DNA of 64,000 nt from an uncultured Eubacteriales bacterium (GTDB taxonomy: Bacteria; Acidobacteriota; Aminicenantia; Aminicenantales; Aminicenantaceae), in the NCBI GenBank assembly GCA_964406575.1, contig CAYOSH010000003.1, forward strand, positions 64,447 to 128,446, written 5' to 3'. Made by a program: the position numbers and the translations under genes. This document shows positions 1,284-55,604 of this stretch, in pieces; within the stretch, counting starts at the first letter, position 1, and every line of letters begins with the position of its first letter. The notes beneath the pieces were generated by a model that worked only from the letters and a program-made list of their open reading frames with translations, searched no databases and was not told the origin of the DNA.

Positions 1284-1356
1284 GGTCGACCTCTCAAAAA
1301 AAATTTCTCTCATTATATTCCTTCGGAATCCTGAATGCAAAATGAGATTGTCTAAC

Positions 1357-1525
1357 GTAAGCATCCTTATTTCCATGATAAGGGCATTAGAGGCAAAAAA
1401 GAGCGAGTCACTGTCCTTATGAGTCGGATGGTGGCGGGTGGGGGGGTATTCGACGAATATGGACTGTGACGAACTCCTGCTATTATTATTTGACTTGAGA
1501 GCATCACGGAAATAAGGATGCTTCC
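1357..1525 (+). mobile_element. MITE-like repeat, family A copy 1 (169 bp)
   Basis: Termini are GTAAGCATCCTTATTTCCATGAT ... ATCACGGAAATAAGGATGCTTCC. A perfect 9-bp direct repeat TTGTCTAAC lies at 1348-1356 and 1526-1534. Near-identical to the copies at 28932, 43808 and 55437. Confidence 0.85.
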
Positions 1526-1560
1526 TTGTCTAACAGATTTGAATAAGCTCCCTTGTCTGC

Positions 1561-1690
1561 TTAAGAATCCTTTTTTCCGCGATTTAGTCGTGTTTCTTTG
1601 CCAGAATGAAGGAACCGGGAAAAAACGACAATCACGAATCAGTGTTTGGAGTGAAGAAAGAGCGAGTGAGATGTTCAGAGGGATGAACAA
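1561..1690. repeat. Possible degenerate relic of the same repeat superfamily
   Basis: TTAAGAATCCTTTTTTCCGCGAT at 1561-1583 matches 19/23 of the family left terminus. GTTCAGAGGGATGAACAA near 1673-1690 resembles the right end of copy B3. No flanking duplication. Confidence 0.3.
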
Positions 1691-1707
1691 AGCAAAGAGT
1701 GCAACGA

Positions 1708-9281: not shown

Positions 9282-9411
9282 TCTTCCGTTTCCCATACGG
9301 TCCATTCGGGGGATGAACTCTATATGCAATTCGTAATGGTCAGTTCAGGGAACTGACTCTACAGCCTAAATTATCCGACGTTCCTAGGACCACGGATATG
9401 GAAATGCGTCC
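9280..9411 (+). mobile_element. MITE-like repeat, family B short copy (B5, ~132 bp)
   Basis: The left part CCGTTTCCCATACGGTCCATTCGGGGGATGAACTC matches the B2 left end (CGTTTCCCAAACGGTCCGTTCGGGGAATGGACTC). The right terminus CCACGGATATGGAAATGCGTCC matches the family right end. It contains an 8-bp perfect hairpin at 9339-9357. Confidence 0.6.
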
Positions 9412-9427
9412 TGGTAAAATTCGCAGA

Positions 9428-11733: not shown

Positions 11734-11969
11734 GTAAACATCCTCAGAACCGTGATGGCACATGCCCAATCACGTTATTTGGTGTTCCAATTTTTTGGTG
11801 GAGAAAACCGTGAGAAGGGCTGGACGGGCATGGTGTATCTCCCGAGTGGGAGATGTGAGGGAAGCCCGGATCCGAGCGAAGTTTCCTCGCTGCGGAAACT
11901 AAGTGTGTTTTCGAAATCTCCAATTGGAACTTTCGGAACGCCATTCATTACAGTTTTGGGGATGCTTCC
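11734..11969 (-). mobile_element. MITE-like repeat, family B copy (B3, 236 bp)
   Basis: Plus-strand termini are GTAAACATCCTCAGAACCGTGATGG ... GGGGATGCTTCC. Flanking 9-mers CTTACATAT and CTTGCATAG match 7/9. The internal core GTCCAGCCCTTCTCACGGTTTTCTCCAC (minus strand) is shared with B1. Confidence 0.75.
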
Positions 11970-13672: not shown

Positions 13673-14746
13673 TTATAAGCTCATCAGAATAGCTGTTGCC
13701 ACAATATTAAAGAGGCTCAATGGGATGAGCAATTTCCATCCCAAATCCATCAACTGGTCGTAGCGGAATCGCGGGTAGGTCCAGCGAACGAGAATCTGGA
13801 ACCAACAGAAAAAGAAAACTTTGAGATTGAAGGACAAAACCTGGAATGCCACTACGACCCCATGAGGGAGAAGCCACTGACCACCCCAGGGAAATTGGAA
13901 TCCATCCGGGTACAACCACGGGACTTGCCACCCACCAAAAAAGAGTGTTGTGAGCAGACAAGCGACGATCAGGACCTTCATAAAGTCCGTGAACATGTAA
14001 AGCCCCCACTTGAGGCCGCTGTATTCTGTAAAAAAACCGATGATTTCAGACTCCCCCTCCGGAAGGTCAAAGGGAACTCTCTCTGACTCAGCCACTGCTG
14101 CGAAGAGGAAGATGATGAATCCTAAGGGCTGAAGCAATATCCCCCACTTCGGCAACCATTCAAAAAGGAGCTGGCCCTGGTAGTGAACGAGATTGGACAG
14201 TGTGAGTGAGGGGAACACCATGATCAGACCAATCAGTGACAGCCCGAGAGCTACCTCATAAGAGACGAGTTGGGCAGCTCCTCTTAAGCCGCCCAAAAGG
14301 GTCCAGCGGCTGTTTGAGGCCCAACCGCTCAAAATGACACCGTAGATACTCATAGAAAGCATGGCCAAAATAAAGAGCAGGCCCACGTTGATATCCAGGA
14401 CCTGCAGTTTGATCTCTCTCCCCCCCAAGCGGAGGCTATCTCCAAAGGGGACAACCGCTACCGTAACCAACACAAAAAAGAATGACAGGAACGGAGATAG
14501 ATTGTGGATGAATCTTCTGGAGAAGACTGGAGTGAAATCCTCCTTGAAGAACATTTTTATCGCATCAGCAAAGGGCTGAAAAAGGCCGATGATCCGGAAC
14601 TTCCAGATGTTGGCCCTGTTCGCTCCAATCCTATCCTGCATGACAGCGCTTTCTTTCCGTTCGGCCCAAGTTAGATAGAGCGCGAGCACCAAAAACCACA
14701 TCATGGCAAAGACGACCTTGATCAACACGATAAGTATGTCTATCAT
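13673..14746 (-). CDS. nuoH: NADH-quinone oxidoreductase subunit H
   Basis: Polytopic, 357 aa. Sequences AERKESAVMQDRIGANR and AESERVPFDLPEGESE are hallmarks of NuoH/ND1. Confidence 0.9.
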   Translation of the reverse strand: MIDILIVLIKVVFAMMWFLVLALYLTWAERKESAVMQDRIGANRANIWKFRIIGLFQPFADAIKMFFKEDFTPVFSRRFIHNLSPFLSFFFVLVTVAVVPFGDSLRLGGREIKLQVLDINVGLLFILAMLSMSIYGVILSGWASNSRWTLLGGLRGAAQLVSYEVALGLSLIGLIMVFPSLTLSNLVHYQGQLLFEWLPKWGILLQPLGFIIFLFAAVAESERVPFDLPEGESEIIGFFTEYSGLKWGLYMFTDFMKVLIVACLLTTLFFGGWQVPWLYPDGFQFPWGGQWLLPHGVVVAFQVLSFNLKVFFFCWFQILVRWTYPRFRYDQLMDLGWKLLIPLSLFNIVATAILMSL

Positions 14747-26850: not shown

Positions 26851-28869
26851 TTAAAACCGCTGAGTTTCCAAATCCACAGCTTCTTTTCCTCTAAATCGGT
26901 CCTCATCACGCGTTCCAAAACTGAACTGATTGGCGACAGGAACGCCATACTTTTTCGAGTAGATCTCGCACTTTTTAAAGATATCCTCCAGTTCCTCGCG
27001 CGACAGAAGCTCATTCTTGTAATCGAAGAGATACCCCCCCCTTTCGTGCTCGATTTTGGGTTTATTCAAGACGAGCAAAGGACGCAGGATCAATGCATCG
27101 GCTTCGATCTTCTGGCACAAACGGAAATAGTCCTCCAGGTCATCCCTGTTCACCCTCATGGGCATAAAAACCATATGTATCTTGGGGAGATTCCCCTTAT
27201 TTTTCCTTTCTTGGTTCAAGAGAACGAGGTTGGGGATAATCGATTCCCACCGGTCATTCCTTATCTTGGCATAGGTCTCCTTTGTCGCAGCGTCCAGGGA
27301 TATATACAGATATATGGGTTTTCCTGCCAGAGCTTTGATCGTTCTTTGTGTGAATGCCTGGCCGTTTGTGGATATTTCCATGATTTTTTTGTGTCTCGTG
27401 CAATGCTCCAAGATCTGCTCGAACCTCGGATGTAAAAGCGGTTCACCGATGGAGCAGTTGATGAGGAGGCGAGCTGACCGGAAAAAAGGCCCGTACTCCT
27501 CGAAGGTCTTCTCGTCGACGACGGTTTCGATATGCCCTTCTTCTTCCTCCTTCATCCAATCCCAGAGACAGTACACACACGGTGGCTTCATGTTGCATTT
27601 GGCAAGAAGATCTATTCCCAGGTTGAGCGGATAGGAGTTCAACGCTGTTTTTCCCTGTTTCCGTTCCTCATAATTCAACATGGCATTTTTGTGGAAAAAG
27701 CGGAATTCCTCATGGATCTCGTCCTCATCATGGAACTGGATCGGCGAGACCTTGATGCCCAATTCTCTCGGATCCTCGTTGTGGTATTTTTCTGGGAACA
27801 CTCTGTTCAACGACAAAACAAGCTCATGCCCGCTGTGTTCCTTCGGAATAGTCGGGATGGAAGGAAGAGGGAAACTGTAGAAATTCCAGCTTTTGATGAG
27901 AGGATAAGCCCCAAGCTCCTTGCCATCCAGCTCTATTTGGAGGGCCTGTTTGTAATTGGCGTATTCGGAGAAGGCGTAGACAGAGATGAATTTGTGTGAT
28001 TGCAACTGGCACGTGGGCAAAAACACGCGGGCCCTTTGTTTCATCCATGCGTAAGGGAAGAATTCATCATGCTCCCATTCATGCCACCCAAAGTCGTAGA
28101 GCGAACCCTCCTGGTCGGGCAGAACAACCTTAATATTTTTGAGGAAGATACCCAATTTTCTCGAATCGCCACTGAGATCTGGCGGGAAAACACGGTTCAG
28201 CCGCAGTTCTATTTCGAAAGATGTCGAGGAAAAATCGAGAAGGAAATAGTACTTCGTTTCCCCGGGCAGGATCTCTCTCGAGCTGACGGATTTGCCCTCT
28301 GATAAAATCGTCAAGACAGGATTCTCGGCGCCTTCATAAGGGTGCCCTGCCTCGATGAGTAAGTATTTCTCTGTATCTTTGGGGAGGTCGGAAAAAAGAC
28401 ATTTCGCCTTTTTCTTCATCCAGCGGGACGCAATACGGTTTGGGTCTTCACTAGGAGTTTCGGGCAAATACCACCCATCCAGGAAGACTCCGACTTCCGA
28501 AGGGGTGAGAACCTCGACATCTCTCACCATTATTCCCATGTCTCTGGGATCGCCTTCAACCTGGAACGTGCGGTCCAGTTTGATATCGACGTTGAGATCG
28601 CCTGATTCGCTAAAGGCAAATATATATGGGCTGAATGCTGCTTCGACCTCCCGGCTCCCGATCTTCCGGTTGTTCACAAAAACGTCCATGACCGGGATCT
28701 TTTTGCCCGGGAAAGAATGGCCCGCCGTGATGCGAAGGAATTGCTTGCCTGGGTTTGGATAGTCTTTAAGAGATACCGCCGCCTCCTTCGACATCCACCT
28801 GAACGGGCCCTTGTCATCCCGTTCTTCTACATACCAACCGTCAAGGTACTCTTTGTGTGGGGCTTTCAT
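26851..28869 (-). CDS. Radical-SAM-like protein with three N-terminal ~120-aa repeats and a Cx5Cx2C cluster motif
   Basis: Residues 11-121, 131-249 and 260-379 each carry GW(Y/H)..E...(F)RWM.K.A ... D.R.(M/L)G(I). Then come CNMKPPCVYC (nt 27568-27597), IGEPLLHP, ISTNGQ and ISLDAATKETYAKIR, which are typical radical-SAM core motifs. Confidence 0.7.
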   Translation of the reverse strand: MKAPHKEYLDGWYVEERDDKGPFRWMSKEAAVSLKDYPNPGKQFLRITAGHSFPGKKIPVMDVFVNNRKIGSREVEAAFSPYIFAFSESGDLNVDIKLDRTFQVEGDPRDMGIMVRDVEVLTPSEVGVFLDGWYLPETPSEDPNRIASRWMKKKAKCLFSDLPKDTEKYLLIEAGHPYEGAENPVLTILSEGKSVSSREILPGETKYYFLLDFSSTSFEIELRLNRVFPPDLSGDSRKLGIFLKNIKVVLPDQEGSLYDFGWHEWEHDEFFPYAWMKQRARVFLPTCQLQSHKFISVYAFSEYANYKQALQIELDGKELGAYPLIKSWNFYSFPLPSIPTIPKEHSGHELVLSLNRVFPEKYHNEDPRELGIKVSPIQFHDEDEIHEEFRFFHKNAMLNYEERKQGKTALNSYPLNLGIDLLAKCNMKPPCVYCLWDWMKEEEEGHIETVVDEKTFEEYGPFFRSARLLINCSIGEPLLHPRFEQILEHCTRHKKIMEISTNGQAFTQRTIKALAGKPIYLYISLDAATKETYAKIRNDRWESIIPNLVLLNQERKNKGNLPKIHMVFMPMRVNRDDLEDYFRLCQKIEADALILRPLLVLNKPKIEHERGGYLFDYKNELLSREELEDIFKKCEIYSKKYGVPVANQFSFGTRDEDRFRGKEAVDLETQRF

Positions 28870-28931
28870 CGTTTAACCGGAGGCTTATTGTAATTCGCAC
28901 CTATTCCTTTGTCAATTTTCAGAATTGGCAC

Positions 28932-29099
28932 GGAAGAATCCTTATTTCCGTGATAAAGGCATTAGACGCAAAAAGGAGCGAGTCACTGTCCTTATGAGTC
29001 GGATGGTGGTGGGTGGGGGGTCTTCGACGAATATGGACTGAGACGAACTCCTGCTATTATCATTTGACTTGATAGCATCACGGAAATAAGGATGCTTCC
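28932..29099 (+). mobile_element. MITE-like repeat, family A copy 2 (168 bp)
   Basis: GGAAGAATCCTTATTTCCGTGAT ... ATCACGGAAATAAGGATGCTTCC. A perfect 9-bp duplication AATTGGCAC lies at 28923-28931 and 29100-29108. Confidence 0.88.
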
Positions 29100-29108
29100 A
29101 ATTGGCAC

Positions 29109-29355
29109 GTAATCATTTCCAAATCCGTGAACGTCTGAACAATATTGCGTTATGGAGTGTCTCAATTGTGTCTAGAAAGAAACCGGGTGCCGGGCTGGAC
29201 AGCCCTAGCACTTCTTCCTGAAAAAGATAAGCGGAAAATCCGGAAGCGAATCTAAGAAGACTAGGAAATCTCCCTTTGGTGTAGAGTCCATCCTCCGAAT
29301 GGAGCGGCCAGATTTTGAGTCCATTCCCCGAACGGACCGTTTGGGAAACGATCCC
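29109..29355 (-). mobile_element. MITE-like repeat, family B copy (B2, ~247 bp)
   Basis: The plus strand starts GTAATCATTTCCAAATCCGTGAACG and ends CCGTTTGGGAAACGATCCC, an imperfect inverted repeat. Internal ACACAATTGAGACACTCCATAACGCAA (minus strand) is identical to B1. The last base overlaps the lpd stop codon. Confidence 0.75.
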
Positions 29356-30758
29356 TACGAATTGAGCATATGGATGGCCTCGCCTTTGGCATTCATGGCC
29401 GACTCCATGACAGCTTCGGATAATGTTGGATGAATATGTATGGACGAGGCAACATCTCTGAGAGTGAGTTTCAGTTTCACGGCGAGCGTCAATTCTGCAA
29501 TGAATTCACTCGCATTAGGAGCAAGGATCTGTGCGCCGATGATCCTGTCCTTGTCATCCGCCACAACCTTAACGGAGCCCTCCAGCTTTCCCATCGTCAT
29601 CGCTCTGCCGGAAGCTTGTAAGGAAAACACTCCAACCTGCGTTTTTATTCCTCGGTCTTCCGCCTCTTCCTCGGTGATTCCGACACAAGAAAATTCCGGA
29701 TCCGTAAAGACAGCCATGGGAAGGGCGTTGTTATTTATCACATTATTCGCCCCCAGGGCATTCTCAACAGCAAAAATGCCTTCGTGCGAGGCTTTGTGGG
29801 CAAGGAGTTTTCCACCGATGAGATCCCCTATGGCATAAATCCCAGGAATGTCTGTCTCAAGATAATCATTCACCTTTACGAAGCCAGCCTTATCCTGGGT
29901 GAACACGCCTCCTCCCCCCTCGCATATCTCCGCATTGGGCGCTCGGCCCGTGGCGAAAAGCACCATTTCCCCCTCAAAAGTGAAGGGCTTATTGGTCTTC
30001 AAACAGACTCCTCTCAAGGTGACTTGCCCGGTGCGGACATCGCTCTTCTCTATCTTCATGTCTGTATAGATATCCATGCCTTGTTTTTTGAGGATTCGTT
30101 GCAGCCGCCTGGCCATTTGTGAATCTATACCCGGAAGAATGGTGGAAAGGATCTCCAGGACAACAATTTCTGTCCCCAACCTTTGAAAAATGGTGCCGAT
30201 CTCAAGACCAATAGCCCCTGCACCGATAATTAACATTTTTTTCGGGACCTTACCCAACCCGAGGGCCAGTTTGCTATCGATCACCTCCGTGCCGTTTCCT
30301 TGTAAAAATGGAAGCTCCTTCGGCCGACTTCCGGTGGCCAGGATGATCTTTTCCGCTTCGATAACACTCTCCCCTTCTTCTGTGTCGATGCGTATCTGTC
30401 TTTCATTCCGCAAAGAGGCTACTCCCCGGATGACGTGAACGCCGTTCTGTTTCAGTAAAAACTCTATTCCTTTCACCAACCTCTGGACAACAGCATCCTT
30501 TTCCTTTTGCATGTGCTGCCAGTTGCATGAGAGTTCGGTTCTGGGACCGTCAATGTTTGTGTTTTCTCTGACATCTTTAAATAGCTTGGTCTGTTGGAGA
30601 AGATACTTAGTGGGTATACATCCCCAATTCATGCACGTCCCGCCAATCTTCTCTTTCTCGATCAGGACGAGCTTCTTTTTGCACTGTGCGCCTCTGAGTG
30701 CCGCCACATATCCGCCCGGCCCACCCCCAACCACTGCAATGTCATACTTGTCTACCAT
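29355..30758 (-). CDS. lpdA: Dihydrolipoyl dehydrogenase
   Basis: GGGPGGY FAD motif, redox disulfide GGTCMNWGCIPTK, and a C-terminal HIHPTLSE interface motif. Confidence 0.9.
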   Translation of the reverse strand: MVDKYDIAVVGGGPGGYVAALRGAQCKKKLVLIEKEKIGGTCMNWGCIPTKYLLQQTKLFKDVRENTNIDGPRTELSCNWQHMQKEKDAVVQRLVKGIEFLLKQNGVHVIRGVASLRNERQIRIDTEEGESVIEAEKIILATGSRPKELPFLQGNGTEVIDSKLALGLGKVPKKMLIIGAGAIGLEIGTIFQRLGTEIVVLEILSTILPGIDSQMARRLQRILKKQGMDIYTDMKIEKSDVRTGQVTLRGVCLKTNKPFTFEGEMVLFATGRAPNAEICEGGGGVFTQDKAGFVKVNDYLETDIPGIYAIGDLIGGKLLAHKASHEGIFAVENALGANNVINNNALPMAVFTDPEFSCVGITEEEAEDRGIKTQVGVFSLQASGRAMTMGKLEGSVKVVADDKDRIIGAQILAPNASEFIAELTLAVKLKLTLRDVASSIHIHPTLSEAVMESAMNAKGEAIHMLNS

Positions 30759-40724: not shown

Positions 40725-42698
40725 ATGATCAAGACACTCGATTTTTTCTTTATTCTCTGTCTCCTTGTAACACTTTTCTGGGGAATAAACAGGCGTTTCC
40801 GGTTGTGGCATACGGGAGTGGAAGACAACCGCTCCGACAAAATGGGATTCCGTCTAAAATCTCTATTCTCAGAAGTCATATTTCACCGTTCTATTCTTCG
40901 AGATACCTATCCAGGGACTTTGCATCTTTTCATATTCTTCGGTTTTTTCATTCCTCTAGCCGTGATTTTTATCGTCCAGTTCATGTTCACTCTCCCCCAA
41001 CCCATTGCCCGCCTTTTTTCATTCTTACTGGATATTGTCGGGTTTGCTGCATTCATCTCTCTCTGTCTAGTCCTCTACCGCCGCTATGTCACACGTCCAT
41101 CACGGTTATCAAACAAACCTGAGGACCTGGTTGTTGTCCTTTTGCTCCTTTGCGTTATTCTGACTGGTTTCCTTGTCGAGAGCTTGCGCCTTTCTATCAT
41201 CGGAAAGGATACGCAAGTTTGGGCACCCATCGGTCATGTATTGGCTTCTTTGTGGAACACAACGGGCCTGGATAATCAAGTCAAAAGCACATTGACCGCG
41301 CTCTTTTTCAGAATACATTTTTTTCTTGTCCTCGCCACGATCGCTACTATGCCCTTCTCCAAGCTTTTCCACTTGATCTCTTCACCGTTGAATATCCTTT
41401 ACCGCTCCCTTGAACCGAAGGGCGCTTTGAGCCACATGGATCTCGAAGATGAGGCGGCTGAAAGCTTTGGGATCAGTACGATCGCAGAATTCTCATGGAA
41501 ACATCTCCTGGACCTTGATGCCTGCACACAATGCGGAAGGTGCCAGGACCACTGCCCCGCTTTTCTCACCGACAAACCCCTATCTCCGAAAGTGTTGATC
41601 AATGATCTCAAGAATCACATGCACCTCCAGATCCCTCAACAGTTCAAGCAAAAAGCAAAAAAAAGGGAGGCCCCAGAAAGTTCGCCTCTTGTTGGGACTG
41701 TCATTGCCGAAGATGTCCTGTGGGCATGCACGACCTGCCGATCGTGCATGGAGCACTGCCCCGTATATGTGGAACATGTGGATAAGATCGTCGACGTGAG
41801 ACGGTATCAAGTGCTGATGGAAAGTAAGTTTCCAGATGAGCTCACTGCGGCTTTCCGCGGATTGGAAAAAAATTCAAATCCCTGGGGTCTTGGGTTCGAT
41901 GCGCGTGCCGACTGGGTGGGAGAAATGAAGGTCCCCATTCTATCAGAGGTCGGCAGTAAGGCAATAGAATATCTGTTCTTTGTGGGATGTATCCGCTCCT
42001 ACGATGACCGCAATAAAAAAGCCTCGCTGGCTATGATCAAAATCCTCAACCACCTGGGTGTCAAGTTCGCTATTCTGGGGATGGAGGAAGGATGTTGCGG
42101 GGATCCAGCTCGACGGGTCGGAAACGAGTATCTCTACCAGATCCTTGCGCAGACTAATATCGAGACATTCCAGCGATACAACATCCAAAAAATCCTGACG
42201 ACCTGTCCGCACTGTTATAACATGCTCAAGAACGAGTACCCTCAATTGGGTTTTTCAAGCGAAGTCGTCCACCACACAACCTTTCTGTGGGAAAGCTTGA
42301 AAAAGGGTCAACTCAATCTTAAAGAAAACCGGGCCGGGACAATCACCTATCATGATCCCTGTTACCTTGGCAGGTACAGTGATATATACGAGCCGCCGAG
42401 GCACATCCTTCGATCCATCCCCTCTCTGGATGTCCAGGAGATGAAACGTTCAAGGGGTGATTCCTTGTGCTGTGGCGCGGGGGGCGGTTGGATGTGGATG
42501 GATGAGAAGATAGGGAAAAGGATCAACATCGAGCGCCTCGAAGATGCCCTCGCCACTCATTGCAAAGGCGTGGCAACAGCATGCCCGTTCTGTGTCACGA
42601 TGTTCAACGATGCGATCAAAGACAAAGGGCTGGAGGACGATTTCAAGATTTGGGATATCGCTGAGATCATTGCTGATTCCATCGCTGATGCCGATTAG
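40725..42698 (+). CDS. Fused membrane b-type-cytochrome-like (NarI/DsrM-like) plus HdrD/DsrK-like Fe-S/CCG-domain oxidoreductase
   Basis: N-terminal ~230 aa with 5-6 TM and conserved His in the helices (TLHLFIFFGF, RIHFFLV, LFHLISS). Then CTQCGRCQDHCP and CTTCRSCMEHCP, and two CCG motifs (GCCGDPARR, LCCGAGGG). Confidence 0.78.
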   Translation: MIKTLDFFFILCLLVTLFWGINRRFRLWHTGVEDNRSDKMGFRLKSLFSEVIFHRSILRDTYPGTLHLFIFFGFFIPLAVIFIVQFMFTLPQPIARLFSFLLDIVGFAAFISLCLVLYRRYVTRPSRLSNKPEDLVVVLLLLCVILTGFLVESLRLSIIGKDTQVWAPIGHVLASLWNTTGLDNQVKSTLTALFFRIHFFLVLATIATMPFSKLFHLISSPLNILYRSLEPKGALSHMDLEDEAAESFGISTIAEFSWKHLLDLDACTQCGRCQDHCPAFLTDKPLSPKVLINDLKNHMHLQIPQQFKQKAKKREAPESSPLVGTVIAEDVLWACTTCRSCMEHCPVYVEHVDKIVDVRRYQVLMESKFPDELTAAFRGLEKNSNPWGLGFDARADWVGEMKVPILSEVGSKAIEYLFFVGCIRSYDDRNKKASLAMIKILNHLGVKFAILGMEEGCCGDPARRVGNEYLYQILAQTNIETFQRYNIQKILTTCPHCYNMLKNEYPQLGFSSEVVHHTTFLWESLKKGQLNLKENRAGTITYHDPCYLGRYSDIYEPPRHILRSIPSLDVQEMKRSRGDSLCCGAGGGWMWMDEKIGKRINIERLEDALATHCKGVATACPFCVTMFNDAIKDKGLEDDFKIWDIAEIIADSIADAD

Positions 42699-43729: not shown

Positions 43730-43807
43730 CTCTCTTACCTCCTCATGGACATGGGAAGGCACATTATAATTAAATTGCACCAAGTGGGCAAATGCTTTCA
43801 CGGAAAC

Positions 43808-43975
43808 GTAAGCAACTTTAATTCCATGATAAAGGCATTAGACGTAAACAAGAGCGAGTCACTGTCCTTATGAGTCGGATGCTGGTGGGTGGGGGGGTCT
43901 TCGACGAATATGGACTGTGACGAGCTCCTCTATTATCATTTGACTTGAGAGCATCACGAAAAAAAGGATGCTTCC
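43808..43975 (+). mobile_element. MITE-like repeat, family A copy 3 (168 bp)
   Basis: GTAAGCAACTTTAATTCCATGAT ... ATCACGAAAAAAAGGATGCTTCC. Flanking 9-mers CACGGAAAC (43799-43807) and CAGGGAAAC (43976-43984) match 8/9. Confidence 0.85.
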
Positions 43976-44242
43976 CAGGGAAACGTAGGCACATTCACAA
44001 TCGTAAGAAACGACGTCGGAATGCCCCAATAGATGATTACAAACGTCACTCAATACGGGTGTGGAAATGTGTCCGGGGAACTTTTTTAATGTTTACTTGG
44101 TTATAAAACTGTGGTATTTATATTTGTTGAACTTGAGTTACCGAATCGAGGTGGCCACAGCAGTTAGTGACCCGGTATTAGAGACTGCTCCCTTGGCCGC
44201 ACATGTCGGATTTATCGGGTCATACTCAATTGTTTATAAATA

Positions 44243-51435: not shown

Positions 51436-51439
51436 AGAT

Positions 51440-51642
51440 GGGACCGTTGGCGGCGGGCTCAATACAAAGACCGTTTTCCGAACAATTGGTTCGAGGACGG
51501 ATCACTAAATCGGATCTGTTCATTCGGAGAAGGGAGATGATCTATTGCCGTCCAGCCCTTCTCGCAGTTTTCTCCACTACACAATTGAGACACTCCATAA
51601 CGCAACTTGTGTTCATACGATCATGGATTTAGGGATGCTTGC
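51440..51642 (+). mobile_element. MITE-like repeat, family B copy (B1, ~203 bp; left boundary approximate)
   Basis: Starts 5 nt after the recN stop with GGGACCGTTGG (compare B2 GGGATCGTTTCC). Shares the cores GTCCAGCCCTTCTCGCAGTTTTCTCCAC and ACACAATTGAGACACTCCATAACGCAA with other B copies. Ends GATCATGGATTTAGGGATGCTTGC. Confidence 0.7.
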
Positions 51643-51727
51643 AATGTTTTTTCACTTCTTGTGTTTCTAGCAATCTGCGAGTAATTATATTATATTAGTG
51701 GACCTGTTGCAGAGAAAACACACCTCA

Positions 51728-53166: not shown

Positions 53167-53246
53167 GGAAGAATTTTTAATTCCTTGATTGTATGAATAT
53201 AAATGCGTTATTGAGCGTCCCTCTTCACGGATTTGGAAATGCTTCC
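53167..53246. mobile_element. 80-bp mini-copy of the repeat superfamily
   Basis: GGAAGAATTTTTAATTCCTTGAT (compare A2 GGAAGAATCCTTATTTCCGTGAT) ... TTCACGGATTTGGAAATGCTTCC (identical over 18 nt to the B2 terminus). Flanking 9-mers match only 5/9. Confidence 0.6.
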
Positions 53247-53320: not shown

Positions 53321-55285
53321 ATGCCGTTACTCGATTTGATCCCCTATTCCTTCATCATCGGGCTCATCGGCTTGATGATCGCGATTTCCATATATTTTTT
53401 AGTCAAAAGCTACCCCAAGGGCAGTGTAACCATGCAAGAGATCGCGGAAGCCATTCATTCCGGAGCGATGGTTTTTCTAAGGAGAGAATATCTTTTTATT
53501 TCAATTTTTGTTGTGGTTGTGTTTCTTGTCCTTTGGAGACTCTTTTCCGTATACACAAGCCTGGCTTTCATCACTGGGGCCAGTTGCTCGATGCTGGCAG
53601 GATTTATAGGGATGAAGGCCTCAACACGGGCAGCCGTAAGGGTGACTCAAGCAGCCATATCCGATGGAGCTGCAAAAGCGCTGACTATTGCTTTTCAAGG
53701 TGGGGCGGTCATGGGAATATCTGTTGCCGCCCTGGGAGTTGCAGGAATCAGCATCTTCTATTTTTTCACTAGAAATCCCATTATTATTAATGGTTTCGCT
53801 ATGGGAGCCAGTTCTGTCGCTCTGTTCGCTCGCGTGGGAGGAGGGATCTTCACAAAAAGCGCCGATGTGGGCGCGGACCTTGTCGGCAAAGTAGAGGCTG
53901 GCATTCCGGAAGATGATCCCCGAAATCCGGGAGTTATTGCAGATAACGTGGGGGATAACGTGGGTGATACAGCGGGCATGGGTGCAGACCTCTTCGAATC
54001 CTATGTGGGATCAGTCATTGCATCGATGGCCCTTGGCGCAACACTAACGCCCGCGTTGAACCATATGTCCCTGCCTCTTCTCCTTATTGTCGTAGGGCTT
54101 TTCAGCTCACTCATCGGGGTATTTTCTATAAAAATATTGAAGAATTTCCACCCCCAATCCGCTTTAAGGAATTCAACATACATCAGTGCTCTCCTGTTTG
54201 TTGCGGGAGCTTTTTTCTGTGTGAAAGCCCTTTTGGGAAATCTGGATATATTCTTCGCGGTTGTGAGTGGCATGTTCGCTGGGGTGCTTATCGGACTCGA
54301 GAGCGAATACTTCACTTCCGGTCCTCCCATAAAAACTCTGGCGAAAACCGCTCAAACGGGCAGTGCCCCCACCATCATCATGGGATTGGCCATCGGTTTT
54401 CAGAGTACAATTCTTCCCCTTCTCACCATCGCTGCAGCGATATTTGTATCCTATAGACTCGGTGGACTTTACGGAATAGCCCTCGCTGCTGTGGGGATGC
54501 TCTCGACCATTGGGATCGTCATGACGACCGACTCTTACGGACCCATAGCAGACAATGCCGGTGGAATAGCCGAAATGTCGCATGCCGGCACTGAAATCCG
54601 AAAGATCACAGATAAGCTTGATGCTTCTGGAAACACGACTGCGGCCGTAGGGAAGGGTTTCGCTATAGGGTCTGCGGCTCTCACCGCACTCGCCCTTTTC
54701 TCGGCGTATCAAAAAACGACCGGCCTTTCATCCATAAGCTTGACGAATGTGGAAACAGTCATTGGTCTCCTCATCGGCGCACTAATGCCTTTTGCCATCT
54801 CCTCTTTCACTTTAAAAGCTGTAGGACGGGCGGCGGATAAAATGGTGACAGAGATCCGAAGACAGTTCAGAGAAACCAAGGGGCTCATGGAAGGTGATGT
54901 CAAACCTGATTCTGACCGCTGTATCAATATTGTAACCCACAGCGCTTTGATCGAGATGATCCTTCCCGGCCTTCTCGCTGTGATTACGCCTCTTCTTATC
55001 GGATTCCTCATAGGACCGGAATCACTGGGTGGTTTCCTAGCAGGAGCGACAGCCACCGGTGTGCTCTTAGCCATTTTTATGGCGAACGCAGGCGCGGCAT
55101 GGGATAACGCCAAAAAGTGGATCGAAGAAGGAAATCTGGGCGGGAAAGGGACCGCGGTTCACGCCGCTGCTGTAATCGGTGATACCGTAGGAGACCCCTT
55201 GAAGGATACCTCCGGTCCTTCCATGAATATATTGATTAAGCTCATGGCTGTTGTCAGCCTTGTCTTTGCTCCACTCATTCTTTAA
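53321..55285 (+). CDS. hppA: Membrane-integral pyrophosphate-energised cation pump (K+-dependent signature)
   Basis: 654 aa and polytopic. GGG(I)[25 protein letters not shown], and [10 protein letters not shown], where Ala (not Lys) sits in the GNTT(A/K)A motif. Confidence 0.92.
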
Positions 55286-55286
55286 A

Positions 55287-55427
55287 AAACATCTCCACTC
55301 CCACGCTCTGATGAATATTCATTGACTCTATTGAATGATCAGATTGTGTGATGGAGAAAACCGAAGGGAAGTTCTGGTCGGGCTTGGATACTCGGATATT
55401 TCTCATCACGGATTTATCGATACTTCC
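55287..55427 (-). mobile_element. MITE-like repeat, family B short copy (B4, ~140 bp; hppA-side boundary approximate)
   Basis: Plus-strand GATGGAGAAAACCGAAGGGAAGTTCTGGTCGGGC matches the plus strand of B3 (GGTGGAGAAAACCGTGAGAAGGGCTGGACGGGC). It ends CATCACGGATTTATCGATACTTCC at 55427. Confidence 0.6.
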
Positions 55428-55436
55428 TCCATCCTA

Positions 55437-55604
55437 GGAAGCATCCTTATTTCCGTGATGCTCTCAAGTCAAATGATAATAGCAGGAGTTCGTTACAGTC
55501 CACATTCGTCAAATACCCCCCACCCACCATCATCCGACTCATAAGGACAGTGACTCGCTCTTTTTTGCCTCTAATGCCCTTATCACGGATATAAGGATGC
55601 TGAC
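55437..55604 (-). mobile_element. MITE-like repeat, family A copy 4 (168 bp, inverted relative to copies 1-3)
   Basis: GGAAGCATCCTTATTTCCGTGATG ... TATCACGGATATAAGGATGCTGAC. Flanking 9-mers TCCATCCTA and TTCCTCCTA match 7/9. Confidence 0.85.

What the first reader, a model, noticed from the sequence alone, without database searches (positions are those of the whole stretch)
28923..29364. Family A copy 2 sits exactly 9 bp from the terminus of family B copy 2 (terminus / 9 bp / terminus junction)
The sequence reads ...AAGGATGCTTCC | AATTGGCAC | GTAATCATTTCCAAATCCGTG... The TTCC end of A2 (29099) and the GTAA end of B2 (29109) face each other across the 9-mer that is also A2's target-site duplication.

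This geometry matches an IRR-spacer-IRL junction of a tandem dimer or transposon circle in copy-out/paste-in IS families, where the spacer length equals the duplication length. The same arrangement recurs at 55427/55437.

It implies one of three things: strong targeting next to resident termini, reuse of the same target 9-mer, or a composite unit that moves together.
Basis: seen in the sequence. Interest (0 to 1): 0.6.

Follow-up and report, generated by a model that had tools for sequence, protein, structure and literature searches.

The report
Promoter-anchored stacking of small transposons
Two small mobile DNA elements sit exactly 9 bp apart because this family inserts at a fixed distance upstream of the -35 box of ordinary bacterial promoters, so later arrivals reuse the same 9-bp target; I found no report of such promoter-targeted insertion in bacteria.

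Summary
A2 (28932-29099, a 168-bp MITE) is flanked by a perfect 9-bp duplication, AATTGGCAC. The right-hand copy is the whole spacer to the tip of B2 (29109). The same geometry occurs at 55427/55437, and in decayed form next to A3 and A1.

It is not a circle or dimer junction, and it is not a composite unit. In 51 independent A insertions (window, 3 MAGs, 57 metagenome contigs) the GTAAGC end lies tip, 9-bp TSD, 7 bp, then TTGACA-N17-TATAAT reading away from the element. TTGA is at that exact offset in 28/51 copies and in at most 1 at any other offset. A gene start follows in 43/45.

Older B-type elements follow the same rule. Insertion regenerates the 9-mer at the same distance from the -35 box. 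The next element therefore lands between the promoter and the resident one, which gives terminus/9 bp/terminus.

Orthologous loci show the intermediate states: B2 without A2 (L071), neither B4 nor A4 (L076/L077), and B without A3 or A1.

The organism is an uncultured Aminicenantes-like bacterium from salt-marsh sediment. No transposase was found. Its family (IS66-, IS1- or IS256-like) and the way it recognises the promoter remain inferred. My literature searches found no precedent for -35-anchored insertion.

The parts
28887..28892 (-). -10 hexamer TACAAT of the promoter of the 672-aa radical-SAM gene (ATG at 28869, minus strand)
   Evidence: TTGACA-17-TACAAT, 11/12; conserved in L071 and L073
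28910..28915 (-). -35 hexamer TTGACA, the anchor of the insertion site
   Evidence: position -22..-17 from the A2 tip as in the family logo
28916..28922 (.). 7-bp spacer (TTTTCAG) between the -35 hexamer and the target 9-mer
28923..28931 (.). promoter-proximal copy of the 9-bp target-site duplication, AATTGGCAC
28932..29099 (+). A2: 168-bp MITE with 23-nt terminal inverted repeats (GGAAGAATCC...GGATGCTTCC); the young family
29100..29108 (.). second copy of AATTGGCAC, the 9-bp spacer between the A2 and B2 tips; single copy (GTACAGATT, other strand) in L071
29109..29358 (+). B2: older 250-bp MITE with a related terminus (GTAATCATTTCCAAATCCGTGAA). Its right 40-80 nt are hairpin modules and its last bases give the TAG stop of lpdA
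55285..55427 (+). B4: old ~143-bp B-type MITE; its distal tip abuts the H+-PPase stop codon; absent in L076/L077
55428..55436 (.). 9-bp spacer TCCATCCTA between the B4 and A4 tips (decayed TSD copy)
55437..55604 (-). A4: 168-bp A-family MITE, inverted relative to A2; absent in L076/L077
55605..55649 (+). TSD copy TTCCTCCTA (55605-13), 7-bp spacer GGATAAT (55614-20), -35 TTGATA (55621-26), 17-bp spacer, -10 TATAAT (55644-49) of the nusA promoter
43763..44074 (.). A3 stack: -10 (43763-68) and -35 (43786-91) on the minus strand, TSD 43799-807, A3 43808-43975, TSD 43976-84, decayed 90-bp B-type element 43985-44074
1312..1700 (.). A1 stack: -10 (1312-17) and -35 (1335-40) on the minus strand, TSD 1348-56, A1 1357-1525, TSD 1526-34, 16-nt stub of a deleted B-type terminus 1536-51, 9-mer 1552-60, element X from 1561 to about 1700
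11734..11969 (+). B1: B-type MITE with TSD CTTACATAT/CTTGCATAG; its left tip is 16 nt from TTGCTT
51495..51642 (-). B3: B-type MITE; the tip at 51642 is 16 nt from TTGTGT
53167..53246 (+). 80-bp mini element; the tip at 53246 is 16 nt from TTGAAA-17-TATAAA of the H+-PPase promoter

Best explanation
Families A and B are non-autonomous TIR transposons (MITEs). They share a 23-nt terminus, consensus G(G/T)AAGCATCCnnAnnTCCGTGAT, and make 9-bp target duplications.

Their transposition machinery chooses its target relative to a sigma-70-type promoter. The 9-mer that gets duplicated lies 7 bp upstream of the -35 hexamer, at about -51 to -43 from the transcription start. Family A almost always points its GTAAGC end at the promoter.

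The promoter-proximal copy of the duplication keeps its distance from the -35 box, so the site is regenerated by every insertion. A later element therefore lands in the very same 9-mer, between the promoter and the resident element, and pushes the older one upstream. The result is older tip / 9 bp / younger tip.

At 28923-29358 the order was B2 first (ancient, shared with a 90% relative) and then A2.

Shown here: the element anatomy, the TSDs, the fixed -35 spacing and orientation, the order of insertions, and the fact that the promoters pre-existed.

Inferred: DDE-type chemistry, mobilisation in trans by an unseen transposase, and how the -35 region is recognised. I put direct read-out of TTGAC(A) by a DNA-binding domain at about 0.5, tethering to promoter-bound RNA polymerase or sigma at about 0.3, and something else at about 0.2.
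For: - Anatomy. There are four A copies in the window. The TSD matches at 8/9 or better in 34 of 47 unique copies and at 7/9 or better in 41 of 47.
- Promoter anchor. In the left-flank logo of 51 unique copies, positions -22..-17 read (T/A)(T/G)TCAA, with A46, A45 and C40 of 51; this is the reverse complement of TTGACA. Positions -45..-40 read ATTATA, the reverse complement of TATAAT. The spacer is exactly 17, and the rest of the logo is flat.
- TTGA lies at outward positions 17-20 in 28/51 copies and in at most 1 at every other offset (p about 1e-48). TTG is there in 37/51. The right flank has 1/51 and a flat logo.
- An outward ORF of at least 80 aa starts within 250 nt of the -10 in 43/45 left flanks, against 24/44 right flanks.
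- An independent promoter scan calls TTGACA-17-TACAAT at 28915-28887.
- B-type termini follow the same rule. TTG lies at that offset in 9/29, plus 6 at +/-1 (p about 4e-9).
- Intermediate states exist in orthologous loci:
  - L071 has B2 - 9-mer - 7 bp - TTGACA without A2.
  - L076/L077 have ...ATCCTCTGA-CAGTGAT-TTGATA-17-TATAAT-nusA with neither B4 nor A4.
  - L076/L077 have only the B element at the A3 promoter.
  - L078 has X - 9 bp - intact B - 9-mer - promoter where the window has a stub plus A1. L080 has the promoter alone.
  - L074 shows an independent stack at the same promoter as A2.
- Terminus census at 9 bp.
Against: - No autonomous element or transposase was found in 675 kb of related sequence, so the chemistry and the family are inferred.
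- About a quarter of A copies lack TTG at the exact offset. A few are shifted by 1 bp, and 4 are in reverse orientation (L045, L058, L042, L032).
- Some B/C-type elements lie in convergent intergenic regions without a promoter (window 9282-9427).
- All promoters are predicted from sequence. The only metatranscriptome run gave no usable coverage.
- Purifying selection must have shaped which insertions survive, so part of the -10 and gene-start enrichment could arise after insertion.
- The window and the loci come from metagenome assemblies.
Confidence: 0.85

Rival explanations
1. Reactive junction. The A-end / 9 bp / B-end arrangement is an IRR-spacer-IRL junction left by a transposon circle or a tandem (IS)2 dimer of a copy-out/paste-in element.
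For: - The spacer length equals the TSD length, and the two facing termini are related.
- Three Logan contigs at single-copy depth join an A right end to an A left end. Circle-forming families are among the candidates: IS1 and IS256 are known from the literature to form circles (from memory).
Against: - The two ends belong to different elements of different age.
- L071 has B2 with the unduplicated 9-mer and no A2, so the spacer is host DNA that predates A2.
- A2's other end carries the identical 9-mer, the signature of a simple insertion.
- No promoter is formed across the junction.
- The A-A joints have chromosomal single-copy depth (19-21x against 19.8x for the flanks), which fits stacked copies rather than rare circles.
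Confidence: 0.03
2. End-targeted insertion. The transposase bound to a resident related terminus captures the adjacent DNA as its target, as in IS30 IR-targeting or IS911 insertion next to IR-like sequences. A copies are thereby drawn to B tips.
For: - All four A copies in the window abut a B-type terminus or its remnant.
- Facing termini are enriched at 9 bp.
- In L045 the resident terminus lies 9 bp from A's other (left) end.
Against: - Most of the 51 unique A copies have no detectable terminus next to them, yet they sit at the exact -35 distance.
- The stacked cases also carry the -35 hexamer at the canonical offset, so the promoter rule alone predicts them.
- B elements themselves obey the promoter rule.
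- A modest additional attraction to resident ends cannot be excluded.
Confidence: 0.07
3. Selection only. Insertion is random, and only copies at this position upstream of promoters are harmless or beneficial and persist. A variant: A carries an upstream activating site that works only at this spacing.
For: - The genomes are compact. Upstream genes end inside the target 9-mer at lpdA and at the H+-PPase gene, so tolerated positions are few.
- There is a strong orientation bias.
- The conserved TCCGTGAT block of the terminus ends up near -71 (inference).
Against: - Base-pair-exact spacing across more than 37 independent loci, in several element families and in several species, is not expected from tolerance alone. 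Positions further upstream of -52 would be equally harmless, yet they are essentially unused (at most 1 per offset).
- Old, decayed B elements show the same register.
Confidence: 0.05

Closest known systems
Bacterial MITEs derived from IS elements (e.g. Correia/NEMIS, RUP, MITEAba12)
   Same: Small size (80-330 bp), terminal inverted repeats, fixed-length TSD, many copies, intergenic location, no coding capacity, and folding into a long hairpin.
   Different: Known bacterial MITEs have short or loose target preferences such as TA or AT-rich DNA. None that I know of, or found in the searches, is positioned to the base pair and in one orientation relative to the -35 hexamer.
Target-specific prokaryotic elements that home to genomic signals: IS1397/ISKpn1 and ISPpu9 into REP/BIME, IS1630 into terminators, IS900-group between RBS and start codon, class C group II introns after terminators, Tn7 at attTn7 (from memory; ISPpu9: PMC12288879)
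   Same: Insertion at a defined position and orientation relative to a recurring functional DNA signal. This provides a safe haven that avoids breaking genes and allows repeated use of equivalent sites.
   Different: The signal here is the sigma-70 -35 hexamer, a 9-bp TSD is made, and the site is regenerated so that elements stack. The other systems use different signals, and several use different chemistries (IS110 family, ribozymes, TnsD).
Eukaryotic promoter- or initiation-complex-targeted retroelements (Ty3 at Pol III start sites, Ty1 upstream of tRNA genes, Tf1 at Pol II promoters) and Mutator elements with 9-bp TSD and a 5'-of-gene preference (from memory)
   Same: Integration is positioned relative to the transcription machinery's binding site, upstream of genes, which spares coding sequence.
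   Different: Those are eukaryotic and use protein tethering to TFIIIB, Pol III or Sap1. Here the organism is a bacterium, the element is a DNA transposon, and tethering to RNA polymerase or sigma is only one untested possibility.
IS circle or (IS)2 dimer junctions (IS3/IS911, IS30, IS21, IS256, IS1)
   Same: Two termini face each other across a spacer whose length is close to the TSD length.
   Different: Here the ends belong to different elements, the spacer is a pre-existing host 9-mer (L071), and the arrangement is a stable, fixed chromosomal structure.
IS66, IS1 and IS256 families as possible autonomous parents
   Same: - IS66: the IR starts GTAAGCG and is 20-30 bp long (PMC11946415). ISPsk01 has GTAAGCGTCC against A's GTAAGCATCC, 9/10.
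- IS1: 23-nt IRs and a 9-bp TSD. The E. coli IS1A end matches the B consensus at 13/23.
- IS256: GG tips and an 8-9-bp TSD (from memory).
   Different: - IS66 makes 8-bp duplications (PMC11946415), not 9.
- The similarity to IS1 is weak (p about 1e-3 before multiple testing).
- No transposase gene was found to decide between them.

Membership tests
MITE (non-autonomous TIR transposon) | Short length, no transposase gene | tested here: met
   A is 168 bp and B-type elements are 80-330 bp. There is no conserved ORF: the G-run length varies and shifts the frame.
MITE (non-autonomous TIR transposon) | Terminal inverted repeats | tested here: met
   23-nt TIRs. The whole element folds as a hairpin, -60.8 kcal/mol, z = -8.5.
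MITE (non-autonomous TIR transposon) | Fixed-length target-site duplication, and empty sites in relatives | tested here: met
   9-bp TSD at 7/9 or better in 41/47 copies. Empty sites in L071, L076/L077, L078 and L080.
MITE (non-autonomous TIR transposon) | Multiple dispersed copies | tested here: met
   56 unique A loci. A depth is about 150-450 times the unique flank depth in run X1.
IS circle / (IS)2 dimer junction | The abutted IRR and IRL belong to the same element | tested here: not met
   The termini belong to A (young) and B (old), which have different interiors.
IS circle / (IS)2 dimer junction | The spacer is created by the circularisation or dimerisation event | tested here: not met
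   The 9-mer pre-exists as a single copy next to B2 in L071.
IS circle / (IS)2 dimer junction | The junction forms a strong promoter (-35 in one IR, -10 in the other) | tested here: not met
   No promoter-like site spans 29099/29109.
Composite transposon (A+B moving together) | The same A-B unit, in the same relative orientation, recurs at different loci with a common outer TSD | tested here: not met
   B2 and B4 are oppositely oriented relative to A. Most A copies are solitary. B occurs alone in relatives.
IS66 family derivative | IR of 20-30 bp starting GTAAGCG | tested here: inconclusive
   A's left end GTAAGCATCC matches ISPsk01 GTAAGCGTCC at 9/10 and 11/23 overall. The seventh base differs, and right ends start GGAAGC.
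IS66 family derivative | 8-bp target duplication | tested here: not met
   The TSD is 9 bp. The 8-bp value is from PMC11946415.
IS66 family derivative | tnpA-tnpB-tnpC (DDE) genes in the autonomous partner with the same IRs | not testable with these tools
   No full-length element in 675 kb of loci.
IS1 family derivative | IRs of about 23 bp starting GG, and a 9-bp target duplication | tested here: inconclusive
   The length, the GG tip and the 9-bp TSD fit. Sequence identity to the E. coli IS1A ends is 12-13/23 for the B consensus and 7-10/23 for A.
IS1 family derivative | InsA/InsAB' transposase partner | not testable with these tools
   No transposase was found.
Promoter(-35)-anchored site-specific insertion (the behaviour proposed here) | Fixed distance and orientation between the element tip and a -35 hexamer across independent insertions | tested here: met
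   TTGA at outward positions 17-20 in 28/51 copies and TTG in 37/51. All other offsets have at most 1. The right flank has 1/51.
Promoter(-35)-anchored site-specific insertion (the behaviour proposed here) | The motifs are real, pre-existing promoters | tested here: inconclusive
   A -10 lies at a 17-bp spacing and gene starts follow in 43/45. The promoters are conserved in relatives that lack the elements. There is no transcription-start data.

The most novel reading that the evidence does not exclude
The transposase is guided to its target by promoter-bound RNA polymerase holoenzyme (sigma region 4 or the alpha-CTD), or it carries a sigma-4-like reader of the -35 box. That would be a bacterial counterpart of Ty3/Ty1 targeting to the Pol III machinery.

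A corollary: the conserved TIR block (TCCGTGAT), deposited near -71 at dozens of promoters, could serve as a mobile operator that ties those promoters into one regulon.
Probability: 0.25. Interest if true: 0.95.

Novelty: new variant of a known kind. Interest (0 to 1): 0.8.

Why it matters
If this holds, it is a bacterial DNA transposon family whose target is defined by the core promoter itself. The target 9-mer lies 7 bp upstream of the -35 hexamer, and the element inserts in one orientation.

That would matter for four reasons.
1. It shows a safe-haven strategy in very compact genomes, where the upstream gene can end inside the target 9-mer and is repaired by the duplication.
2. It gives a mechanism that repeatedly remodels the DNA upstream of -52 at many promoters. 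Resident activator sites and older elements are displaced, and identical sequence is placed at about -52 to -220.
3. It explains the stacks of nested-looking repeats at intergenic regions that break metagenome assemblies.
4. It offers a candidate tool, or probe, for promoter-directed DNA insertion.

It also turns a puzzling geometric coincidence into a testable rule: any resident element of this superfamily should have its promoter-side tip 16 bp from a -35 box, and any neighbour should be 9 bp away.

Tried and rejected
- Rfam and tRNA scans of the window found nothing. A and B are not known RNA genes.
- I searched for a full-length IS with the same termini. I paired PWM termini 400-5000 bp apart in 675 kb of sequence and found none. 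I also clustered all ORFs of at least 200 aa to find multi-copy proteins; only orthologous loci came up.
- A viral-contig scan with a degenerate terminus gave one chance-like hit, L075.
- blastn of A2+B2 against plasmids gave no match.
- Walking off the window ends failed because the proteins are not on record.
- Read-level evidence for A2 polymorphism or circles: only Logan contigs are available. A2 is fixed in four salt-marsh runs, and the skip joints turned out to be other loci where an A end meets a hairpin module.
- I looked for a transcription start at the nusA promoter. One metatranscriptome run placed a single 151-nt contig inside nusA.
- I asked whether the invariant A core is an intrinsic terminator facing the promoter. 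The fold is not better than shuffles, z = -1.4 and -0.2, so I rejected the idea.
- My first guess, that lpdA originally ended ...SEN*, was rejected. All homologues end ...LN(T/S/Q) at 467 aa.
- I asked whether the 18-19-bp spacers (L025, L070) are TSD-TSD excision footprints. The two halves are not repeats, so I rejected this.
- The 8-nt tandem duplication in L077 is not in TSD register.
- Literature searches for promoter or -35 targeting by IS elements or MITEs found no precedent.
Full report
**1. What is at the coordinates**

The region 28870-29354 is the intergenic space between two minus-strand genes. One is a 672-aa radical-SAM protein whose ATG is at 28869. The other is dihydrolipoyl dehydrogenase (lpdA, 29355-30758).

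The region contains, from left to right:
- AATTGGCAC (28923-28931);
- a 168-bp element, A2 (28932-29099), bounded by 23-nt inverted repeats GGAAGAATCCTTATTTCCGTGAT ... ATCACGGAAATAAGGATGCTTCC;
- AATTGGCAC again (29100-29108);
- B2 (29109-29358), which starts GTAATCATTTCCAAATCCGTGAA.

The only correction is that B2 ends at 29358, and its last bases provide the TAG stop of lpdA.

The second junction, 55427 / TCCATCCTA / 55437, is also as described.

Five independent metagenome contigs carry the identical A2-9-B2 arrangement. Four salt-marsh runs show no A2-less form.

**2. What A and B are**

A has four copies in the window: 1357-1525, 28932-29099, 43808-43975 and 55437-55604 (inverted). They are 90-95% alike.

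B-type elements are heterogeneous and old: B1 11734-11969, B2, B3 51495-51642, B4 about 55285-55427, a mini element at 53167-53246, and X from 1561. The B alignment has a mean column identity of 47%. They nevertheless share with A a 23-nt terminus, G(G/T)AAGCATCCnnAnnTCCGTGAT.

A scan of GTDB genomes with the invariant A core found 8 loci in three MAGs. These are labelled Candidatus Aminicenantaceae or "uncultured Eubacteriales". The window's proteins have their best named relatives in Candidatus Aminicenantes. A scan of JGI metagenomes found 57 further loci.

After removing duplicates there are 56 unique A insertions. The 9-bp duplication matches at 8/9 or better in 34 of 47 and at 7/9 or better in 41 of 47.

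A folds into a near-perfect hairpin (-60.8 kcal/mol, z = -8.5). It has no stable ORF and matches no Rfam family.

These are MITEs. The TIR-plus-TSD signature is that of DDE-type transposition. That chemistry is inferred, not shown.

**3. Is the 9-bp spacing more than chance?**

Yes. I built a weight matrix from window termini only and applied it to the right flanks of the 51 unique A copies.
- It scores above 0 at spacers of 8-10 bp in 9 cases, and at all 87 other offsets together in 4 cases (Fisher p = 2.6e-11).
- Strong hits at exactly 9 bp are A2, A4 and the independent locus L034.
- In L045 a resident terminus is 9 bp from A's other end.
- Among all unique facing tip pairs within 200 bp, 5 of 9 are 8-9 bp apart.
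- An nhmmer profile of B termini gives implied spacers of 9, 9, 9, 10, 8 and 10, with outliers at 19, 35 and 48.

**4. The unexpected cause: a promoter anchor**

When the 51 unique left flanks (the GTAAGC end) are lined up on the element tip, two blocks stand out of an otherwise flat logo.
- Positions -22..-17 read (T/A)(T/G)TCAA, with A 46/51, A 45/51 and C 40/51.
- Positions -45..-40 read ATTATA.

On the other strand these are TTGACA and TATAAT separated by exactly 17 bp. This is a canonical sigma-70 promoter that reads away from the element. Its -35 hexamer begins 7 bp beyond the 9-bp duplication.

Further counts support this.
- TTGA occupies outward positions 17-20 in 28/51 copies, and no other offset has more than 1 (p about 1e-48). 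TTG is there in 37/51. In the right flanks the count is 1/51 and the logo is flat.
- An outward-reading ORF of at least 80 aa starts within 250 nt of the -10 in 43/45 left flanks (median about 35 nt). The figure for right flanks is 24/44 (p = 5e-6).
- For A2 the independent promoter scanner reports TTGACA-17-TACAAT at 28915-28887 (11/12 matches), 17 nt upstream of the radical-SAM ATG.
- A4 lies upstream of TTGATA-17-TATAAT of nusA. A3 lies upstream of TTGCCC-17-TATAAT of an aminotransferase gene. A1 lies upstream of TTGCAT-17-TATAAT of a TldD-like gene.
- Four copies have the same spacing but the opposite orientation: L045, L058, L042 and L032.
- B-type termini obey the same rule. Of 29 high-scoring non-A termini, 9 have TTG at the same offset and 6 more at +/-1, mostly followed by a good -10 (p about 4e-9).

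In promoter coordinates the duplicated 9-mer is about -51..-43, and the element begins at about -52.

**5. Why this gives terminus / 9 bp / terminus**

After an insertion, the promoter-side copy of the duplication is still 7 bp from the -35 box, so the site is intact. The next element uses the same 9-mer and lands between the promoter and the resident element. It duplicates the 9-mer again.

Orthologous loci show the intermediate states.
- (a) L071, a relative with 90% identical lpdA and the same gene order, reads ...GGAAATGATTAC(B2 tip)|GTACAGATT|CCGAAAA|TTGACA-17-TACAAT-ATG. B2 is present, A2 is absent, and there is one 9-mer.
- (b) L076 and L077 (about 77% relatives, fully syntenic) have an 84-nt H+-PPase-to-nusA spacer...CTC ATC CTC TGA|CAGTGAT|TTGATA-17-TATAAT. 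Neither B4 nor A4 is present, and the ancestral 9-mer is the end of the PPase gene. The window has three decayed copies of it: ATTCTTTAA, still serving as the last codons and stop; TCCATCCTA; and TTCCTCCTA.
- (c) At the A3 promoter L076 and L077 carry only a B-type element (234 and 132 bp) whose tip is 15-16 nt from the -35. The window has A3 between the promoter and a decayed 90-bp orthologue of that element (43985-44074), 9 bp away.
- (d) At the A1 promoter the 95% relative L078 has X | 9 bp | an intact ~270-bp B-type element | 9-mer | promoter. The window has X | GCAGACAAG | a 16-nt stub of that element's terminus | TSD | A1 | TSD | 7 bp | TTGCAT. The odd 35-bp gap is therefore 9 + 16 + 1 + 9. 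The 81% relative L080 has the promoter alone.
- (e) L074, a 75% relative, shows an independent stack at the same promoter as A2: an A-like right end | GCCACCATT | GGAAGCATTTCC....

All four A copies of the window are thus stacked on older elements. In each case the promoter is conserved in relatives that lack the elements, so the promoters came first.

**6. The alternatives**

*Circle or dimer junction.* The ends belong to different elements, the spacer pre-exists in L071, A2 has an ordinary TSD, and no junction promoter is formed.

*Composite unit.* B2 and B4 have opposite internal orientation relative to A (the internal homology is weak, 61-70%). Most A copies are solitary, and B occurs alone in relatives.

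*Targeting of resident ends.* This is unnecessary, because solitary copies obey the same -35 register. A minor extra attraction cannot be excluded.

*Selection alone.* This cannot give base-pair-exact spacing, because positions further upstream would be equally harmless yet are unused.

*The promoter is part of the element.* This is excluded by the flat logo between the hexamers and by the empty sites that keep the promoter.

**7. How it most likely works**

Shown: the anatomy, the 9-bp staggered-cut signature, the fixed register and orientation, regeneration of the site, and the order of events.

Inferred:
- A DDE transposase supplied in trans binds the shared termini.
- It selects the target asymmetrically through the -35 region.

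The base frequencies of the targeted hexamer (T 90%, T 88%, G 78%, A 59%, C/A, A about 50%) resemble a generic -35 compilation (from memory) rather than a tighter motif. This is compatible either with direct reading of TTGAC or with docking on promoter-bound RNA polymerase or sigma. The data do not decide between the two.

The target 9-mer coincides with the upstream edge of the polymerase footprint (established knowledge). This would suit a transpososome that prefers bent DNA. That is speculation.

**8. Which IS family?**

This is unresolved. No autonomous copy was found.
- The A tip GTAAGCATCC matches the IS66 hallmark GTAAGCG(TCC) at 9/10 (PMC12888890, PMC11946415). However, IS66 elements make 8-bp duplications.
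- The 23-nt IR length, the GG tip and the 9-bp TSD fit IS1. The B consensus matches the E. coli IS1A end at 13/23 (p about 1e-3 before multiple testing).
- IS256 (GG tips, 8-9-bp TSD; from memory) is also possible.

**9. Novelty**

Site-specific transposable elements and MITEs are known kinds. Elements that home to REPs, terminators, RBS regions, attC or attTn7 are known (mostly from memory; ISPpu9/REP: PMC12288879). Six full-text searches found no bacterial IS or MITE that inserts at a fixed distance and in a fixed orientation from the -35 hexamer. The library is incomplete, so this is absence of evidence only.

I therefore rate it a new variant of a known kind, with high interest. The original finding, taken alone, is explained as an ordinary consequence of that rule.

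**10. Caveats**

- All sequences are metagenome assemblies.
- The promoters are predicted, not mapped.
- The unique loci come from several related populations and may include a few diverged orthologues, although their TSDs all differ.
- About a quarter of the copies deviate from the exact register.
- Some B/C-type repeats lie away from promoters.
- The transposase is unknown.

Noticed in passing
window 29281-29358 and 9290-9365; L043/L065 right flank of A: There is a separate high-copy family of ~40-45-nt palindromic hairpin modules (GTAGGG.TCC.TTCCCCGAACGG ... CCGTTTGGGAAACGATCCCTAC). Its depth is about 45 times the unique depth in run X1. The modules sit at gene 3' ends, including a convergent intergenic region. 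One of them forms B2's right 'terminus' and supplies the lpdA stop codon.
   Followed up: partly
window 28932-29099, as laid in runs X1-X4: Three Logan contigs at single-copy depth (19-21x) join an A right end to an A left end ('goes back 165-170'). They are probably A-on-A tandem stacks elsewhere in the same genome. The spacer could not be read with the tools.
   Followed up: no
window 55276-55285 and 29355-29360: The upstream genes end inside or at the target 9-mer. The H+-PPase keeps its last codons and stop in the distal TSD copy (ATT CTT TAA). lpdA takes its TAG from the B2 tip. This shows how tightly stop codons and the next promoter are packed.
   Followed up: yes
L077 about 14500-14560, compared with L076: An 8-nt tandem duplication (TGTCAATT) lies just upstream of the H+-PPase promoter. 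It is not in TSD register and is possibly slippage rather than an excision footprint.
   Followed up: partly
window 51436-51697 vs L076/L077 13080-13200: In the relatives the SMC-like and MiaB-like genes abut (TAA ATG) with no intergenic promoter. The window has 262 nt there, with B3 and a promoter-like TTGTGT-18-AATTAT. The origin of this extra DNA is not explained by a simple insertion.
   Followed up: no
window 28960-28995 (all A copies): A has an invariant 30-nt core, GAGCGAGTCACTGTCCTTATGAGTCGGATG, next to a variable G-run. It is not a convincing terminator. The reason for its conservation is unknown.
   Followed up: partly
window 41497-41519: An isolated terminus-like match (GGAAACATCTCCTGGACCTTGAT, PWM score 15.3) lies inside the 657-aa ORF 40725-42698. 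It is probably chance.
   Followed up: no
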